Below are positions 1-7,376 of a stretch of 7,376 nucleotides of DNA, one piece after another. The stretch lies in assembly GCA_000004985.1 (NCBI GenBank), contig GG739142.1; one strand, written 5' to 3'. Below the pieces are notes generated by a model, which saw only the letters and a program-made list of their open reading frames with translations, ran no database searches and was not told the DNA's origin. A program made the translations under genes and the position numbers. Within the stretch, counting starts at the first letter, position 1; every line of letters starts with the position of its first letter. Origin of the DNA: Naegleria gruberi. Lineage: Eukaryota.

Positions 1-968
1 ATGTGTCTTCCCATTTTTTTTATTAAATTAAATTCCGAAAGGATTGTTTACAACAATTAATCAGAATCAGAAGAACTATTTGAATTCTCTGTTGAAATTT
101 CCTCTCTAACTCTCTTCTAGCTGTTATTCTTTTCATTCTCCTTTGATACATCATGATCACCCTTCTTCGATTTCTTCCCAGGGATCTCTTCAACTACATT
201 TGCAGTGGATTCACCATTTGAATTCTCACCCTCCAATTTGCTTTAGCTTTAACAATCTAGTACTTGGCAAGCTTGCTCTTATTTCTCAATACTTTGCCCA
301 TTCATTCGATAATAATCTTGAATAATTAGCGGATCCGTCAAGCTCTGTTATTGGTTTCTTTAAAATTGATGTGCAAACATGTAAGATCTGAGCAGTTTTC
401 ACGGAAAGCTCACAAATTTCAACGTTAACACTATTACTTGATCGCCATGTTGAATAGTCAAGAGCGATAATTGGATGATATCTTGATTTTAGACTTTGGT
501 GTACCAGCTTGGTTATTATCTGAATCTGAATCCGAATCTGATCAGGGCATGAAATCAAAATCTCCAATTTTTAATCAAGATTGAAATGATTCCAGTTCTT
601 TATTGGGAGAAATTCGATCTCCTCTTCCTGAAACAAAAATATCCTTCATTTCTTCACAAATCTTATTCGCAGATTTAATATCTTGCTGAATTGGAACATA
701 TGTTGTTGAAAGAGTGAAAATGAGACCTTCTCCAAAAAGGCAGAATTCATTGCTAAGGGCCGTACAATCAACAGCATATAACTAGTTCACAGAAAATTTG
801 GAGTTGCCTTCTTTACGGAAACAAATCTTGCTAATCCTTTAACACCTGCAGAACAAGTTCAATAGAATCCATTACGTATTATGATAGGTGTCAATTATGT
901 GATCTTCTTGATCTGAATGAACCCTTAAACTCAGGACAATGTATTGCTGGGCACTATGTAGTGAGTAA
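1..968 (+). promoter_or_regulatory. Putative 5' flank / promoter region of the cyclase gene (no convincing CDS)
   Basis: No ATG-initiated ORF of convincing length or composition on either strand. All track ORFs here start at TTG/GTG and are low-complexity. There are pyrimidine-rich (CT) tracts at about 90-200 and a T8 run at 13-20, typical of yeast intergenic/promoter DNA. Stops in all three + frames within 30 nt of the mask edge, except one ATG-less open frame. Confidence 0.25.
520..545. repeat. Short hexamer microsatellite (GAATCY)x4
   Basis: ctgaatctgaatccgaatctgatcag: about 4 tandem copies of gaatct/gaatcc. Confidence 0.6.
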
Positions 969-970
969 GA

Positions 971-3900
971 NNNNNNNNNNNNNNNNNNNNNNNNNNNNNN
1001 NNNNNNNNNNNNNNNNNNNNNNNNNNNNNNNNNNNNNNNNNNNNNNNNNNNNNNNNNNNNNNNNNNNNNNNNNNNNNNNNNNNNNNNNNNNNNNNNNNNN
1101 NNNNNNNNNNNNNNNNNNNNNNNNNNNNNNNNNNNNNNNNNNNNNNNNNNNNNNNNNNNNNNNNNNNNNNNNNNNNNNNNNNNNNNNNNNNNNNNNNNNN
1201 NNNNNNNNNNNNNNNNNNNNNNNNNNNNNNNNNNNNNNNNNNNNNNNNNNNNNNNNNNNNNNNNNNNNNNNNNNNNNNNNNNNNNNNNNNNNNNNNNNNN
1301 NNNNNNNNNNNNNNNNNNNNNNNNNNNNNNNNNNNNNNNNNNNNNNNNNNNNNNNNNNNNNNNNNNNNNNNNNNNNNNNNNNNNNNNNNNNNNNNNNNNN
1401 NNNNNNNNNNNNNNNNNNNNNNNNNNNNNNNNNNNNNNNNNNNNNNNNNNNNNNNNNNNNNNNNNNNNNNNNNNNNNNNNNNNNNNNNNNNNNNNNNNNN
1501 NNNNNNNNNNNNNNNNNNNNNNNNNNNNNNNNNNNNNNNNNNNNNNNNNNNNNNNNNNNNNNNNNNNNNNNNNNNNNNNNNNNNNNNNNNNNNNNNNNNN
1601 NNNNNNNNNNNNNNNNNNNNNNNNNNNNNNNNNNNNNNNNNNNNNNNNNNNNNNNNNNNNNNNNNNNNNNNNNNNNNNNNNNNNNNNNNNNNNNNNNNNN
1701 NNNNNNNNNNNNNNNNNNNNNNNNNNNNNNNNNNNNNNNNNNNNNNNNNNNNNNNNNNNNNNNNNNNNNNNNNNNNNNNNNNNNNNNNNNNNNNNNNNNN
1801 NNNNNNNNNNNNNNNNNNNNNNNNNNNNNNNNNNNNNNNNNNNNNNNNNNNNNNNNNNNNNNNNNNNNNNNNNNNNNNNNNNNNNNNNNNNNNNNNNNNN
1901 NNNNNNNNNNNNNNNNNNNNNNNNNNNNNNNNNNNNNNNNNNNNNNNNNNNNNNNNNNNNNNNNNNNNNNNNNNNNNNNNNNNNNNNNNNNNNNNNNNNN
2001 NNNNNNNNNNNNNNNNNNNNNNNNNNNNNNNNNNNNNNNNNNNNNNNNNNNNNNNNNNNNNNNNNNNNNNNNNNNNNNNNNNNNNNNNNNNNNNNNNNNN
2101 NNNNNNNNNNNNNNNNNNNNNNNNNNNNNNNNNNNNNNNNNNNNNNNNNNNNNNNNNNNNNNNNNNNNNNNNNNNNNNNNNNNNNNNNNNNNNNNNNNNN
2201 NNNNNNNNNNNNNNNNNNNNNNNNNNNNNNNNNNNNNNNNNNNNNNNNNNNNNNNNNNNNNNNNNNNNNNNNNNNNNNNNNNNNNNNNNNNNNNNNNNNN
2301 NNNNNNNNNNNNNNNNNNNNNNNNNNNNNNNNNNNNNNNNNNNNNNNNNNNNNNNNNNNNNNNNNNNNNNNNNNNNNNNNNNNNNNNNNNNNNNNNNNNN
2401 NNNNNNNNNNNNNNNNNNNNNNNNNNNNNNNNNNNNNNNNNNNNNNNNNNNNNNNNNNNNNNNNNNNNNNNNNNNNNNNNNNNNNNNNNNNNNNNNNNNN
2501 NNNNNNNNNNNNNNNNNNNNNNNNNNNNNNNNNNNNNNNNNNNNNNNNNNNNNNNNNNNNNNNNNNNNNNNNNNNNNNNNNNNNNNNNNNNNNNNNNNNN
2601 NNNNNNNNNNNNNNNNNNNNNNNNNNNNNNNNNNNNNNNNNNNNNNNNNNNNNNNNNNNNNNNNNNNNNNNNNNNNNNNNNNNNNNNNNNNNNNNNNNNN
2701 NNNNNNNNNNNNNNNNNNNNNNNNNNNNNNNNNNNNNNNNNNNNNNNNNNNNNNNNNNNNNNNNNNNNNNNNNNNNNNNNNNNNNNNNNNNNNNNNNNNN
2801 NNNNNNNNNNNNNNNNNNNNNNNNNNNNNNNNNNNNNNNNNNNNNNNNNNNNNNNNNNNNNNNNNNNNNNNNNNNNNNNNNNNNNNNNNNNNNNNNNNNN
2901 NNNNNNNNNNNNNNNNNNNNNNNNNNNNNNNNNNNNNNNNNNNNNNNNNNNNNNNNNNNNNNNNNNNNNNNNNNNNNNNNNNNNNNNNNNNNNNNNNNNN
3001 NNNNNNNNNNNNNNNNNNNNNNNNNNNNNNNNNNNNNNNNNNNNNNNNNNNNNNNNNNNNNNNNNNNNNNNNNNNNNNNNNNNNNNNNNNNNNNNNNNNN
3101 NNNNNNNNNNNNNNNNNNNNNNNNNNNNNNNNNNNNNNNNNNNNNNNNNNNNNNNNNNNNNNNNNNNNNNNNNNNNNNNNNNNNNNNNNNNNNNNNNNNN
3201 NNNNNNNNNNNNNNNNNNNNNNNNNNNNNNNNNNNNNNNNNNNNNNNNNNNNNNNNNNNNNNNNNNNNNNNNNNNNNNNNNNNNNNNNNNNNNNNNNNNN
3301 NNNNNNNNNNNNNNNNNNNNNNNNNNNNNNNNNNNNNNNNNNNNNNNNNNNNNNNNNNNNNNNNNNNNNNNNNNNNNNNNNNNNNNNNNNNNNNNNNNNN
3401 NNNNNNNNNNNNNNNNNNNNNNNNNNNNNNNNNNNNNNNNNNNNNNNNNNNNNNNNNNNNNNNNNNNNNNNNNNNNNNNNNNNNNNNNNNNNNNNNNNNN
3501 NNNNNNNNNNNNNNNNNNNNNNNNNNNNNNNNNNNNNNNNNNNNNNNNNNNNNNNNNNNNNNNNNNNNNNNNNNNNNNNNNNNNNNNNNNNNNNNNNNNN
3601 NNNNNNNNNNNNNNNNNNNNNNNNNNNNNNNNNNNNNNNNNNNNNNNNNNNNNNNNNNNNNNNNNNNNNNNNNNNNNNNNNNNNNNNNNNNNNNNNNNNN
3701 NNNNNNNNNNNNNNNNNNNNNNNNNNNNNNNNNNNNNNNNNNNNNNNNNNNNNNNNNNNNNNNNNNNNNNNNNNNNNNNNNNNNNNNNNNNNNNNNNNNN
3801 NNNNNNNNNNNNNNNNNNNNNNNNNNNNNNNNNNNNNNNNNNNNNNNNNNNNNNNNNNNNNNNNNNNNNNNNNNNNNNNNNNNNNNNNNNNNNNNNNNNN

Positions 3901-5821
3901 NNNNNNNNNNNNNNNNNNNNNNNNNNNNNNNNNNNNNNNNNNNNNNNNNNNNNNNNNNNNNNNNNNNNNNNNNNNNNNNNNNNNNNNNNNNNNNNNNNNN
4001 NNNNNNNNNNNNNNNNNNNNNNNNNNNNNNNNNNNNNNNNNNNNNNNNNNNNNNNNNNNNNNNNNNNNNNNNNNNNNNNNNNNNNNNNNNNNNNNNNNNN
4101 NNNNNNNNNNNNNNNNNNNNNNNNNNNNNNNNNNNNNNNNNNNNNNNNNNNNNNNNNNNNNNNNNNNNNNNNNNNNNNNNNNNNNNNNNNNNNNNNNNNN
4201 NNNNNNNNNNNNNNNNNNNNNNNNNNNNNNNNNNNNNNNNNNNNNNNNNNNNNNNNNNNNNNNNNNNNNNNNNNNNNNNNNNNNNNNNNNNNNNNNNNNN
4301 NNNNNNNNNNNNNNNNNNNNNNNNNNNNNNNNNNNNNNNNNNNNNNNNNNNNNNNNNNNNNNNNNNNNNNNNNNNNNNNNNNNNNNNNNNNNNNNNNNNN
4401 NNNNNNNNNNNNNNNNNNNNNNNNNNNNNNNNNNNNNNNNNNNNNNNNNNNNNNNNNNNNNNNNNNNNNNNNNNNNNNNNNNNNNNNNNNNNNNNNNNNN
4501 NNNNNNNNNNNNNNNNNNNNNNNNNNNNNNNNNNNNNNNNNNNNNNNNNNNNNNNNNNNNNNNNNNNNNNNNNNNNNNNNNNNNNNNNNNNNNNNNNNNN
4601 NNNNNNNNNNNNNNNNNNNNNNNNNNNNNNNNNNNNNNNNNNNNNNNNNNNNNNNNNNNNNNNNNNNNNNNNNNNNNNNNNNNNNNNNNNNNNNNNNNNN
4701 NNNNNNNNNNNNNNNNNNNNNNNNNNNNNNNNNNNNNNNNNNNNNNNNNNNNNNNNNNNNNNNNNNNNNNNNNNNNNNNNNNNNNNNNNNNNNNNNNNNN
4801 NNNNNNNNNNNNNNNNNNNNNNNNNNNNNNNNNNNNNNNNNNNNNNNNNNNNNNNNNNNNNNNNNNNNNNNNNNNNNNNNNNNNNNNNNNNNNNNNNNNN
4901 NNNNNNNNNNNNNNNNNNNNNNNNNNNNNNNNNNNNNNNNNNNNNNNNNNNNNNNNNNNNNNNNNNNNNNNNNNNNNNNNNNNNNNNNNNNNNNNNNNNN
5001 NNNNNNNNNNNNNNNNNNNNNNNNNNNNNNNNNNNNNNNNNNNNNNNNNNNNNNNNNNNNNNNNNNNNNNNNNNNNNNNNNNNNNNNNNNNNNNNNNNNN
5101 NNNNNNNNNNNNNNNNNNNNNNNNNNNNNNNNNNNNNNNNNNNNNNNNNNNNNNNNNNNNNNNNNNNNNNNNNNNNNNNNNNNNNNNNNNNNNNNNNNNN
5201 NNNNNNNNNNNNNNNNNNNNNNNNNNNNNNNNNNNNNNNNNNNNNNNNNNNNNNNNNNNNNNNNNNNNNNNNNNNNNNNNNNNNNNNNNNNNNNNNNNNN
5301 NNNNNNNNNNNNNNNNNNNNNNNNNNNNNNNNNNNNNNNNNNNNNNNNNNNNNNNNNNNNNNNNNNNNNNNNNNNNNNNNNNNNNNNNNNNNNNNNNNNN
5401 NNNNNNNNNNNNNNNNNNNNNNNNNNNNNNNNNNNNNNNNNNNNNNNNNNNNNNNNNNNNNNNNNNNNNNNNNNNNNNNNNNNNNNNNNNNNNNNNNNNN
5501 NNNNNNNNNNNNNNNNNNNNNNNNNNNNNNNNNNNNNNNNNNNNNNNNNNNNNNNNNNNNNNNNNNNNNNNNNNNNNNNNNNNNNNNNNNNNNNNNNNNN
5601 NNNNNNNNNNNNNNNNNNNNNNNNNNNNNNNNNNNNNNNNNNNNNNNNNNNNNNNNNNNNNNNNNNNNNNNNNNNNNNNNNNNNNNNNNNNNNNNNNNNN
5701 NNNNNNNNNNNNNNNNNNNNNNNNNNNNNNNNNNNNNNNNNNNNNNNNNNNNNNNNNNNNNNNNNNNNNNNNNNNNNNNNNNNNNNNNNNNNNNNNNNNN
5801 NNNNNNNNNNNNNNNNNNNNN
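971..5821. other. Hard-masked or gap run of 4851 N; content unreadable
   Basis: Continuous n from 971 to 5821. The two huge ORFs through it in the six-frame track (961..5928 + and 931..5829 -) are artefacts of N translated as X. Confidence 0.99.
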
Positions 5822-6164
5822 AGCTTCAAGAATGGAATCTAATTCAATTCCAGGAAGAATTCAAATTTCCAGATCAACCTACGAAAGAGTTTATGATTTG
5901 GGTTTCACTTTTGAAGAAAGACATTTAAATGTGAAAGGAAAAGGTGAATGTATTGCTTACATGTTGCATGAGAAACATCACACTCCAGCTCTTGTTCCAT
6001 CCTTCACTGACATGTTGAGAACAAGTTTAAACATTTTACAAAAGAAAAATTCTGCAAATCTTGAAACATTGAATGAACCCAAAACACCAACAAGAAACAA
6101 TGATAATATTACCTTGACAATCAATCAAGAAGCCTACCTATCTCCAAATAATACTTTGGAGTAA
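971..6164 (+). CDS. Inferred full extent of the same cyclase gene if the masked block is colinear and intronless. The start codon is not visible and may lie anywhere inside 971-5821.
   Basis: In the cyclase codon phase (codon starts at positions divisible by 3) there is an in-frame TAA at 966-968 immediately before the mask, so the start must lie inside the mask. The mask length of 4851 is 3 x 1617. The maximum size of about 1730 codons fits fungal adenylate cyclases (about 1700-2000 aa). This is pure inference across unreadable sequence. Confidence 0.3.
5822..6164 (+). CDS. C-terminal end of a class III nucleotidyl (adenylyl/guanylyl) cyclase catalytic domain, 5'-partial; the reading frame continues upstream into the masked run (probable fungal CYR1-like adenylate cyclase)
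   Basis: Translating from 5823 in the phase of the ATG at 5832 gives ASRMESNSIPGRIQISRSTYERVYDLGFTFEERHLNVKGKGECIAYMLHEKHH... This matches the conserved end of cyclase homology domains (..GDTVNTASRMES.G.PG.IQVS..T...L......RG...VKGKG.M.TY.L). The frame is open back to the first unmasked base; the M at 5832 is the internal Met of the ASRMES motif, not a start. TAA stop at 6162-6164. Yeast-like codon usage. Confidence 0.85.
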
Positions 6165-6220
6165 TTTATTTTGAGCTCTGTTATGAAGCCTACCTATCTC
6201 CAAATAATACTTTGGAGTAA
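6129..6220 (+). repeat. Perfect 36-bp direct repeat (two copies, 6129-6164 and 6185-6220) duplicating the last 11 codons and stop codon of the cyclase gene into its 3' UTR
   Basis: gaagcctacctatctccaaataatactttggagtaa occurs identically at 6129-6164 and 6185-6220, separated by the 20-bp spacer tttattttgagctctgttat. The flanking bases differ on both sides (a vs t upstream, ttt vs atg downstream). Confidence 0.9.
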
Positions 6221-6339
6221 ATGTTATGAACAAAGTTGAGAATCTCTCCAATAAATAGGCTGCAAATGTCTAATTGGAGCTAGCTCAAATAATAGATTAA
6301 TCATTTTTACACGAAGTAAATAAATTAGGTTTATTTAAA
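6165..6339. terminator. AT-rich convergent 3' region shared by the cyclase (+) and alpha-adaptin (-) genes; presumed 3' UTRs and polyadenylation/termination signals for both
   Basis: Only 175 bp separate the two convergent stop codons. It contains AATAAA-like and TA-rich elements on both strands (+: ccaataaatagg at about 6247-6258, tattttgag; -: aataaa as the reverse complement of tttatt at about 6322-6327, tattta). Yeast-type positioning and efficiency elements are only inferred. Confidence 0.4.
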
Positions 6340-7376
6340 TTATTGGGAGGTGAGTTCTTGTAAGATGTAATTGAAAACTTGTTGAGCAATAGTGGCATCT
6401 TGAGCCTTGACAGTTAATCTGTAAGCTTGCTTTGGAGCATTGTATTCAAGACGTAATAAAACGTTAACCTTACCAACAGGATCATAGAAGAAAGAACCAG
6501 CAGCAACAATATTACTTGGATTGTCAATACCAGTCAAAATGGCCAAACGGAAACCTTCAGACAAAACCTTAGCACAGGCATTTACATCAGAATATACAGG
6601 AGTGCATGGGAAAATCTTTTGGACTTCTTGTTCCTTTCCAATTGCGTGCCATTGTTTAAAGAAGTTTTCAGCACCTTGGATGACCAATGGTTCAACAAAC
6701 TTGTGTGGAACGATTGGCAACTTGATGTTGAATCTGTAATATCTACGATTAGCTTCAAAGTACAAATCCAAATCAGTCAATTGGCTGAATGGGCCCTTAG
6801 CAACCAAGTCAACATATTGTTGGACTTGAGTCTTTGGTGAAATCATTGGTGGAACCTTGGAAATTTGAGCTTCCAATTCCTTTGGAACGAGAATGTGAAC
6901 CTTGAATTGAGTCAATGGATTAGTAGTCTTGTTACCATAGAGGAGAATAAGTCTACCCTTACATCCGTGATATTCAGTCTTAATCTTGACTTGCAAATGT
7001 TCATCTTCAATGGCAACACCTTCGTTAGACTTGAGCAAAACTTGATGCTTAACAGCAGCGTCTTGATGGACTTGTTCGTTTTGTTCAAGAGCATTATCTC
7101 TGTTAGCAACTACAACATCATCAAAGTTGAATCCGGTAGTATCTCTTTGTTCCTTCTTTTGCTTACCCATGTTGGCAGCTTGAGCAGCAATGTTAACACC
7201 TCCTCCAAAGAAATCACCAACATTGTTTTGTGGTGGTTGTTGAACAGGTGGTTGAGTAACTGGTCCACCAAATCCTCCCAAAATATCGTCCATGCTCAAA
7301 CCTCCTCCATTATTAGTTGGTTGTGGTTGAGAAACTGGTCCACCANNAATCCTCCCAAAATGTCATCCATACTAAT
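6340..7376 (-). CDS. AP-2 complex alpha-adaptin large subunit (yeast APL3 / AP2A orthologue), C-terminal hinge plus alpha-appendage (ear) domain; 5'-partial, continues beyond window end
   Basis: The translation has segments that align with the mammalian alpha-adaptin appendage. ...YHGCKGRLILLYGNKTTNPLTQF... aligns with [20 protein letters not shown]. ...IKLPIVPHKFVEPLVIQGAENFFKQWHAIGKEQEVQKIF... aligns with [39 protein letters not shown]. ...LLRLEYNAPKQAYRLTVKAQDATIAQQVFNYILQELTSQ* aligns with [36 protein letters not shown]. It is preceded by a Q/P/G-rich low-complexity hinge. TAA stop at 6340-6342. The frame is open to the window end once the 2-N ambiguity at 7346-7347 is ignored. The M that the ORF track places at 7299 is really a TTG (Leu) codon internal to the hinge. 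Confidence 0.85.
7250..7376 (-). repeat. Imperfect in-frame tandem repeat of about 75 nt (25 codons) inside the adaptin hinge, encoding repeated SMDDILGGFGGPV(T/S)QP motifs
   Basis: On the + strand, ggttgagtaactggtccaccaaatcctcccaaaatatcgtccatgct (7250-7296) nearly repeats as ggttgagaaactggtccaccaNNaatcctcccaaaatgtcatccatact (7325-7373). Read on the minus strand this gives ..LSMDDILGGFGGPVTQP.. and ..ISMDDILGGF[nn]GGPVSQP.. Confidence 0.7.

What the first reader, a model, noticed from the sequence alone, without database searches (positions are those of the whole stretch)
5822..6164. Tail of a class III cyclase emerges from the masked block, so the masked 4.85 kb very likely encodes a large CYR1-type adenylate cyclase
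The unmasked 3' flank begins in the middle of the most conserved cyclase motif (..ASRMES..PGRIQIS....VKGKGE..Y.L) and the frame is open right up to the first N. In fungi the only class III cyclase is the large Ras/G-protein-regulated adenylate cyclase (RA domain, LRRs, PP2C-like domain, catalytic domain, C-terminal CAP/Srv2-binding tail). The about 65-residue tail after the catalytic core here (HEKHHTPALVPSFTDMLRTSLNILQKKNSANLETLNEPKTPTRNNDNITLTINQEAYLSPNNTLE) is short compared with S. cerevisiae Cyr1, which may mean a divergent or absent CAP-binding region. The substrate-specifying residues (Lys/Asp for AC versus Glu/Cys for GC; the Asp/Cys lies a few residues upstream of WGDTVN) are under the mask, so AC versus GC cannot be decided from what is visible.
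Basis: partly seen in the sequence, partly recalled or inferred. Interest (0 to 1): 0.5.

Follow-up and report, generated by a model that had tools for sequence, protein, structure and literature searches.

The report
Naegleria cyclase gene tail beside assembly gap
The visible stretch is the real C-terminal end of a class III adenylate-cyclase gene, but it comes from the amoeba Naegleria gruberi rather than a fungus, it abuts a genuine assembly gap, and it belongs to Naegleria's large, already catalogued family of membrane PAS-domain cyclases, so it is ordinary.

Summary
Window 5823-6164 (+) is an open frame running from the first base after the Ns to a TAA stop. It matches the last 50 positions of Pfam PF00211 (E 5e-8, above the curated cut-off) and keeps all 17 family-invariant residues visible in that segment.

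From its first Met the tail is 100% identical to Naegleria gruberi NEG-M predicted protein NAEGRDRAFT_81666 (110 aa). The neighbouring gene is N. gruberi alpha-adaptin, recorded on a contig of exactly 7,376 nt, which is the window length. So the organism is a heterolobosean, not a fungus, and the CYR1 argument has no basis.

The 4,851 Ns are almost certainly a scaffold gap in the draft assembly, not a mask. No protein in a 5.8-billion-sequence database joins this tail to an upstream body.

The closest full-length relatives are Naegleria proteins of 1,061-1,808 aa. 19 of 20 combine TmcB-type TPR, PAS and a C-terminal cyclase domain, preceded by hydrophobic segments in the six profiled. None has LRR, RA or PP2C. 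The Asp of the Lys/Asp pair is invariant and the Lys nearly so, which predicts an adenylate cyclase.

A large cyclase in the gap is plausible in size but cannot be tested here. Interest is low.

The parts
5823..6167 (+). Last 113 codons plus the TAA stop of a class III cyclase gene. It holds the end of the catalytic domain (ASRMES...GRIQIS...KGKG), the family motif YMLHEKHH and a 64-residue low-conservation tail. From Met 5832 it equals N. gruberi NAEGRDRAFT_81666.
971..5821 (.). Run of 4,851 N. It is most likely a mate-pair-sized scaffold gap in the N. gruberi draft assembly, between a 970-nt contig and a 1,555-nt contig. It presumably holds the body of the cyclase gene, but that cannot be read.
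   Evidence: The contig length recorded for the adaptin model equals the window length. No database protein extends the tail upstream.
6129..6164 (+). First copy of an exact 36-nt direct repeat (GAAGCCTACCTATCTCCAAATAATACTTTGGAGTAA). It covers the last 11 codons (EAYLSPNNTLE) and the first two bases of the stop codon, which is TAA at 6165-6167.
   Evidence: The last 28 nt of this copy (6137-6164) are also present in the independent contig L002, which ends there.
6185..6220 (+). Second copy of the 36-nt repeat, in the 3' untranslated/intergenic region. It starts 56 nt after the first copy, so it lies in a different frame.
6340..7376 (-). Convergent neighbour: the C-terminal third (appendage domains) of the AP-2 alpha-adaptin gene, which runs off the window end. 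The NCBI model NAEGRDRAFT_54847 (317 aa) is a truncated version of a 1,023-aa protein.
120..560 (-). Relic of a gene related to N. gruberi NAEGRDRAFT_54818 (unknown function), interrupted by stops and frameshifts. It shows no similarity to the cyclase family.

Best explanation
The visible stretch is the 3' end of a Naegleria gruberi gene for a class IIIa nucleotidyl cyclase, cut off by a gap in the draft genome assembly. The window appears to be one whole 7,376-nt scaffold made of a 970-nt contig, about 4.85 kb of Ns and a 1,555-nt contig.

By similarity the gene belongs to a Naegleria-wide family of roughly 1,100-1,800-residue predicted polytopic membrane proteins. In the profiled members these have an N-terminal cluster of about 6-7 hydrophobic segments, a TmcB-type TPR region, about four further hydrophobic segments, one cytoplasmic PAS domain, a helical linker (LLxNILPxxVAxxLKxGE) and a single C-terminal cyclase homology domain followed by YLLxxKHH and a short variable tail.

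Inferred mechanism: the single catalytic domain homodimerises to form two symmetric active sites, each using two metal-binding Asp, a Lys/Asp pair that selects ATP, and an Asn/Arg pair that stabilises the transition state. The enzyme would therefore make cAMP, with activity set by the PAS and membrane sensor modules through the helical linker.

Shown directly in this window: the final part of the catalytic domain including the transition-state Arg, the family motif, the stop codon and the organism. Inferred from relatives only: everything upstream, namely the domains, the Lys/Asp pair, the metal Asps and the membrane topology. The 110-aa NCBI model is an artefact of the gap, not a small protein.
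For: Identity and organism:
- The tail is 100% identical to XP_002670999.1 / EFC38255.1.
- The neighbour is 100% identical to XP_002668316.1, recorded on a 7,376-nt contig.
- Taxonomy places N. gruberi in Heterolobosea.

Cyclase domain:
- PF00211 positions 133-182 of 183, E 5.4e-8.
- 17 of 17 invariant columns are kept.

Family:
- An exhaustive phmmer search gives 219 hits. The best full-length hits match at their extreme C-terminus, and the ten whose names were looked up are from N. fowleri, N. lovaniensis and N. gruberi, apart from one unnamed ENA sequence.
- Pfam on 20 of them: Guanylate_cyc 20/20, PAS_9 19/20, TPR_TmcB 19/20, nothing else.
- The best relative with genomic context (P0002, 67% identity, similarity continuing into EKHH..PS(F/L)TD(M/I)L) sits in a 5.7-kb gene with TPR_TmcB, PAS and one cyclase domain.
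- Hydropathy profiles of six members show 7-13 hydrophobic segments.

Catalytic residues in relatives:
- Invariant: the first metal Asp of FFSDMVGFT, the Asp of YDLWGDT, the Asn and the Arg. At least 90% conserved: the Lys and the second metal Asp of KTIGDAY.
- The domain aligns to both C1 and C2 of mammalian AC8/AC9, which are the best solved matches.

Gap is real:
- No protein among 5.8 billion carries the tail plus upstream sequence.
- The NN at 7346-7347 are two spurious bases compared with an independent 99.6%-identical contig.
- Contig sizes are on the scale of Sanger reads.

Literature: Naegleria has at least 81 membrane-bound adenylate/guanylate cyclases (PMC9928731), and N. gruberi is unusually rich in PAS proteins (bioRxiv 10.1101/2023.04.23.537977).
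Against: - The body of the gene cannot be seen, and assignment to the TmcB/PAS family rests on about 60-80 alignable residues.
- The best N. fowleri match (FDP41_001627) is not syntenic: there is no adaptin next to it. No clear ortholog was established.
- The left flank shows no cyclase start and instead carries a degraded minus-strand gene relic. Part of the gap may therefore belong to something else.
- The identical 110-aa model is recorded on a different, 250,472-nt contig. The region is thus present more than once in the assembly, and the model there is cut at the same Met, which I cannot explain.
- No member of this family has, to my knowledge, been assayed biochemically.
Confidence: 0.75

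Rival explanations
1. One reading: the hidden block encodes a fungal CYR1-type, Ras-regulated adenylate cyclase (RA, LRR, PP2C-like, catalytic domain, CAP-binding tail).
For: Only the general facts that the tail is a class III cyclase C-terminus and that 5.2 kb could hold a large protein.
Against: - The organism is Naegleria gruberi, not a fungus.
- None of the 20 closest full-length relatives has an LRR, RA or PP2C domain.
- Naegleria has dozens of cyclases, so the 'only one class III cyclase' logic fails.
- The tail length is typical of the Naegleria family.
Confidence: 0.01
2. The tail is a dead or orphan 3' fragment: a duplicated end of a cyclase gene with no intact body upstream. It would sit in a redundantly assembled or rearranged region.
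For: - The same 110-aa model is recorded on another contig and is cut at the same Met.
- The adaptin C-terminus is recorded on two N. gruberi contigs (7,376 and 14,026 nt).
- The left flank carries a pseudogene-like relic.
- A 36-nt duplication lies at the stop codon.
Against: - The frame is open to the very first base after the gap.
- All 17 invariant family residues are intact.
- The Pfam score is above the curated cut-off.
- Truncated models next to gaps are a routine annotation artefact.
Confidence: 0.12
3. It is an intact Naegleria cyclase but of another architecture. Examples are a shorter receptor-type enzyme with a periplasmic-binding-protein-like domain (as in the OpuAC + cyclase gene near the N. 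fowleri hit) or a soluble BLUF/PAC-type enzyme. The rest of the gap would then be occupied by other genes.
For: - Naegleria cyclases come in several architectures: L010 holds an OpuAC + Guanylate_cyc gene, and photoactivated cyclases are reported in PMC9928731.
- Only about 60 residues are available for classification.
- A minus-strand gene relic may run into the gap from the left.
Against: - The 20 best-scoring full-length hits are nearly all (19/20) TmcB-TPR + PAS + cyclase.
- The post-catalytic Y(L/M)Lxx(K)HH motif is shared with them.
- The best contextual relative has that architecture.
Confidence: 0.1

Closest known systems
Naegleria TmcB-TPR / PAS / cyclase membrane proteins (e.g. N. 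fowleri FDP41_001627, 1,714 aa; N. lovaniensis C9374_003576, 1,709 aa; N. gruberi NAEGRDRAFT_72081, 1,736 aa, and NAEGRDRAFT_69917, 1,402 aa)
   Same: 60-77% identity over the visible catalytic segment. The invariant residues are identical. The Y(L/M)LxxKHH motif follows KGKG in the same way, and a short variable tail ends the protein.
   Different: The body of the window's gene cannot be seen. No ortholog or synteny was established. The family is known only from genome annotation ('adenylate and guanylate cyclase catalytic domain containing protein'), and I know of no biochemical study.
Mammalian membrane adenylyl cyclases (AC8, AC9, AC5; PDB 8buz, 6r3q/7pd4, 8sl3)
   Same: These are the best solved-structure matches to the family's catalytic domain (E 1e-51 to 1e-55). 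The class IIIa motifs are shared, including KTIGD, YD(I/L)WG.T(V/I)N.ASRM and KGKG, and the enzymes are polytopic membrane proteins.
   Different: Mammalian enzymes have two complementary catalytic domains (C1 and C2) in one chain. The Naegleria proteins have one domain carrying both sets of residues, which implies a homodimer. The sensor modules differ too: PAS and TmcB-TPR, with no 2x6TM arrangement.
Fungal Cyr1/CYR1 adenylate cyclase
   Same: A large protein with a single C-terminal class III catalytic domain, predicted to make cAMP.
   Different: A different lineage and a different architecture (RA, LRR, PP2C-like, CAP/Srv2-binding tail). None of these domains occurs in the 20 closest relatives, and the organism is not a fungus.
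Bacterial heme-PAS sensors FixL / DosP (as the closest solved relatives of the family's PAS domain)
   Same: The PAS domain of N. fowleri FDP41_001627 aligns to the R. meliloti FixL heme domain (1d06, E 2.5e-8).
   Different: In that alignment the proximal heme His of FixL faces an Ile, so FixL-type heme binding is not predicted. The ligand is unknown. This concerns relatives only, not the visible window.

Membership tests
Class III nucleotidyl cyclase catalytic domain (Pfam PF00211) | Significant match to the domain profile | tested here: met
   E 5.4e-8 and 33.1 bits against a cut-off of 21.9, covering profile positions 133-182 of 183 only, because the rest lies under the Ns.
Class III nucleotidyl cyclase catalytic domain (Pfam PF00211) | Transition-state Arg in the ASRM(E/D)S motif | tested here: met
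   ASRMES is the first visible peptide. The Arg column is invariant in relatives and aligns to ASRM of AC8/AC9 C2.
Class III nucleotidyl cyclase catalytic domain (Pfam PF00211) | Two metal-binding Asp residues and the transition-state Asn | not testable with these tools
   They lie under the N run. In 20 relatives the first metal Asp and the Asn are invariant, and the second metal Asp (KTIGD) is at least 90% conserved.
Adenylate- versus guanylate-specific class III cyclase | Lys/Asp (AC) versus Glu/Cys-type (GC) specificity pair | not testable with these tools
   Hidden in this gene. In relatives the Asp of YDLWGDT is invariant (20/20) and the Lys of KTIGD is at least 90% conserved. All close fragments that reach this motif have YD(L/I)WG. 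The prediction is AC.
Naegleria TmcB-TPR / PAS / cyclase membrane family | C-terminal catalytic segment with the family's invariant residues and the Y(L/M)LxxKHH motif after KGKG | tested here: met
   17 of 17 invariant columns are kept and YMLHEKHH is present. The best full-length hits whose names were looked up are Naegleria proteins of this family.
Naegleria TmcB-TPR / PAS / cyclase membrane family | Upstream TPR_TmcB region, PAS domain and multiple transmembrane segments | not testable with these tools
   Under the Ns. The space available (at most about 1,730 codons) is compatible with members of 1,061-1,808 aa. The left flank shows no family similarity.
   100% identity of both flanking genes to Naegleria gruberi NEG-M proteins. 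The lineage is Discoba/Heterolobosea.
Fungal CYR1-type adenylate cyclase | RA domain, leucine-rich repeats and PP2C-like domain upstream of the catalytic domain | not testable with these tools
   Hidden in this gene. 0 of 20 closest full-length relatives have any of them.
Fungal CYR1-type adenylate cyclase | C-terminal CAP/Srv2-binding region | not tested
   No Cyr1 sequence was available to align. The tail is unconserved even among Naegleria paralogs, whose tails are 16-82 residues long.

The most novel reading that the evidence does not exclude
The cyclase tail and its neighbourhood occur two or three times in the N. gruberi assembly, each time broken at the same point, and a fresh 36-nt duplication lies at the stop codon. 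One reading is that the locus sits at the edge of a recent segmental duplication or gene-conversion tract. Near-identical cyclase bodies would then defeat assembly. If so, this would be a snapshot of how Naegleria's cyclase repertoire of more than 80 genes expands. Alternatively, the hidden body might have an undescribed architecture.
Probability: 0.08. Interest if true: 0.3.

Novelty: already known. Interest (0 to 1): 0.08.

Why it matters
It matters little. The fragment is already in NCBI as a 110-aa predicted protein with a precomputed PF00211 hit, and Naegleria's very large cyclase repertoire is described in the genome and pangenome papers. The useful outcomes are corrective:
- The source is a heterolobosean amoeba, not a fungus.
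- The N block is an assembly gap that no tool here can open.
- NAEGRDRAFT_81666 and NAEGRDRAFT_54847 are truncated gene models, of a probable cyclase of roughly 1,100-1,800 aa and of a 1,023-aa alpha-adaptin respectively.

The TmcB-TPR/PAS/cyclase family as a whole is uncharacterised and could interest people who study sensing in Naegleria. This window adds nothing beyond one more member.

Tried and rejected
- Opening the gap failed. The N. gruberi contigs carrying P0001, P0021, P0028 and P0184 are not in the gene-position index. An exact 43-nt pattern from the gap edge found nothing in JGI metagenomes. A protein-guided scan there returned only relatives of 43-55% identity.
- An ENA contig (L002) that is 99.6% identical to the window stops at window position 6137, inside the tail. 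It confirms the adjacency and the repeat but not the gene body.
- Synteny through N. fowleri failed. The best full-length hit, FDP41_001627, has no adaptin neighbour.
- I looked for a cyclase start in the left flank. tblastn with 20 family members gave only noise, best E 0.043.
- I considered that the Ns might be a deliberate mask over an annotated coding sequence, because 4,851 is divisible by 3. I rejected this for two reasons. A coding sequence filling 971-5821 would be one base out of frame with the tail. And no database protein contains the tail joined to upstream sequence.
- tRNA and Rfam scans of the window found nothing.
- The Cell 2010 genome paper is not held in the library. The figure of 108 cyclases that I remember from it is therefore not used, and the pangenome paper's 'at least 81' is cited instead.

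Full report
**What is in the window.** The window is 7,376 nt long. It has one run of 4,851 N at 971-5821 and two further Ns at 7346-7347. Directly after the long N run, frame 5823 reads ASRMESNSIPGRIQISRSTYERVYDLGFTFEERHLNVKGKGECIAYMLHEKHHTPALVPSFTDMLRTSLNILQKKNSANLETLNEPKTPTRNNDNITLTINQEAYLSPNNTLE and ends at TAA 6165-6167. The first 49 residues match the last 50 positions of Pfam PF00211, the adenylate/guanylate cyclase catalytic domain. The match scores E 5.4e-8 and 33.1 bits against a curated cut-off of 21.9.

**Which organism.** From its first Met (5832) the tail is 100% identical to the 110-aa predicted protein NAEGRDRAFT_81666 (EFC38255.1 / XP_002670999.1) of Naegleria gruberi NEG-M. 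The convergent minus-strand ORF at 6340-7299 carries the two alpha-adaptin appendage domains PF02883 and PF02296. It is 100% identical to N. gruberi NAEGRDRAFT_54847, a 317-aa model. N. gruberi is a heterolobosean in Discoba, not a fungus. That argument therefore has no basis here. The Naegleria pangenome paper reports at least 81 membrane-bound adenylate/guanylate cyclases (PMC9928731).

**What the N block is.** Several observations point the same way:
- The contig length recorded for the adaptin model is 7,376 nt, exactly the window length, so the window looks like one complete small scaffold.
- Its two sequenced parts are 970 and 1,555 nt, about one to a few Sanger reads each.
- An independent ENA contig (L002, 3,891 nt) matches window 6137-7374 at 99.6% identity. 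It shows that the NN at 7346-7347 are two spurious bases that break the adaptin frame, so this record carries its own base-call ambiguities.
- Neither the 5.8-billion-sequence search nor the exhaustive representative search found any protein that joins this tail to an upstream body.

I conclude that the Ns are a mate-pair-sized assembly gap, not a mask over known sequence. My own attempts to cross the gap failed.

**Which kind of cyclase.** An exhaustive phmmer search with the tail found 219 proteins at E <= 1e-3. The best full-length hits match at their extreme C-terminus. The 20 I aligned are 1,061-1,808 aa long. The ten whose names I looked up (1,179-1,736 aa) come from N. fowleri, N. lovaniensis and N. 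gruberi, apart from one unnamed ENA sequence. Pfam scans of the 20 gave:

| Pfam family | Members matching (of 20) |
|---|---|
| Guanylate_cyc | 20 |
| PAS_9 | 19 |
| TPR_TmcB | 19 |
| RA, LRR, PP2C | 0 |

Hydropathy profiles of six members show a cluster of about 6-7 hydrophobic segments near residues 110-440 and about four more between 750 and 1,260, ahead of the PAS domain.

The best-scoring relative is P0002, at 67% identity. Its similarity continues past the catalytic core: EC(I/V)AY(M/L)L.EKHH, then PS(F/L)TD(M/I)L. It lies on a Logan contig (L001) in a 5.7-kb gene with the same TPR_TmcB, PAS and single-cyclase layout.

The window's tail keeps all 17 columns that are invariant in the family and visible here. 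It also has the family motif Y(L/M)LxxKHH after KGKG. Tails after KGKG are 16-82 residues in the family and 72 here. The 'short tail' is therefore normal and says nothing about CAP binding.

**How it most likely works.** In the relatives the single catalytic domain carries both sets of class III residues:
- invariant in 20 of 20: the first metal Asp (FFSDMVGFT), the specificity Asp of YDLWGDT, the Asn and the Arg;
- at least 90% conserved: the second metal Asp and the specificity Lys, both in KTIGDAY.

The domain aligns to both C1 and C2 of mammalian AC8 and AC9, which are the best solved matches at E about 1e-53 to 1e-55. From established knowledge of class III cyclases, one domain with all six residues implies a homodimer with two symmetric active sites. 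Lys/Asp implies ATP as substrate. A conserved helical segment (LLxNILPxxVAxxLKxGE) links the PAS domain to the catalytic domain. From my own knowledge this resembles the cyclase transducer element of class IIIa/b enzymes, which suggests that the PAS and membrane modules regulate the catalytic dimer.

The PAS domain's nearest solved relatives are the heme-PAS sensors FixL and DosP (E 2.5e-8). In that alignment an Ile replaces the proximal heme His, so the ligand is unknown.

In this window only the Arg, the last strands of the domain and the tail are actually shown. Everything else is inference from paralogs.

**Surroundings and complications.** The left flank (1-970) has no long ORF and no similarity to the cyclase family. 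On the minus strand at about 120-560 it carries a copy of a gene related to N. gruberi NAEGRDRAFT_54818, of unknown function. That copy is riddled with stops and frameshifts (tblastn E 4e-21, 44% identity). It is either a pseudogene or single-read-quality sequence. It points towards the gap, so not all of the gap need be cyclase.

The gap plus tail allows at most about 1,730 codons. That is enough for a typical family member: the N. fowleri gene for 1,714 aa spans 5,373 nt. The gap size is only an estimate, however.

One fact stays unexplained. The identical 110-aa cyclase model is recorded on a 250,472-nt contig, not on the 7,376-nt one. A further identical adaptin fragment (163 aa, partial) is on a 14,026-nt contig. 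The region therefore seems to be represented more than once in the draft assembly, as haplotigs, redundant pieces or a real duplication. The cyclase model is cut at the same Met in the other copy. This keeps alive a minor rival, that the tail is an orphan fragment. Against that rival, the frame is open and the invariant residues are intact.

**Comparison with what is known, and verdict.** The fragment is already catalogued in NCBI, with a precomputed PF00211 hit. It belongs to a lineage-specific expansion that the Naegleria genome literature already describes. The finding is ordinary, and I score interest at 0.08.

Noticed in passing
window 6129-6164 and 6185-6220: An exact 36-nt direct repeat: the last 11 codons plus the first two bases of the cyclase stop codon (TAA, 6165-6167) are repeated 56 nt downstream, out of frame. 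In the independent ENA contig L002 the second copy is complete and the last 28 nt of the first copy are present before the contig ends, with one mismatch in the spacer. The repeat is therefore real rather than an assembly artefact. Its origin and significance are unknown.
   Followed up: partly
window 7346-7347 and 6340-7376 (-): The NN are two spurious bases compared with L002 (GGAGGATT-TGGTGGACC), and they frameshift the alpha-adaptin gene. The NCBI model NAEGRDRAFT_54847 (317 aa) is a truncated piece of a 1,023-aa alpha-adaptin that is complete on L002.
   Followed up: yes
window 120-560 (-), possibly to about 780: A copy of an uncharacterised N. gruberi gene family (NAEGRDRAFT_54818, partial, on an 8,000-nt contig), interrupted by stops and frameshifts. 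It has an SDSDSDSD stretch and a lysine-rich C-terminus and gives no Pfam match. It is either a pseudogene or low-quality read sequence.
   Followed up: partly
whole window versus other N. gruberi contigs: The identical cyclase tail model is recorded on a 250,472-nt contig, and an identical adaptin fragment on a 14,026-nt contig. The region thus appears two or three times in the draft assembly. Redundant haplotigs and a true duplication could not be told apart.
   Followed up: partly
L002 (ENA ERZ929261, run ERR1078381, project PRJEB11402): An assembly labelled as a metagenome contains DNA 99.6% identical to N. gruberi NEG-M. That sample may hold the missing cyclase body on another contig.
   Followed up: no
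L010 19045-21840 (-), N. fowleri VFQX01000027.1: A second cyclase gene with a different architecture (OpuAC solute-binding-like domain + Guanylate_cyc, 898 aa) lies 3.7 kb downstream of the TmcB/PAS cyclase FDP41_001627.
   Followed up: no
P0032 residues ~1320-1445 (relative, not the window): The family's PAS domain is most similar to the heme-binding PAS domains of FixL and DosP, but an Ile stands at the proximal-His position. This suggests a FixL-like fold without FixL-type heme ligation.
   Followed up: partly
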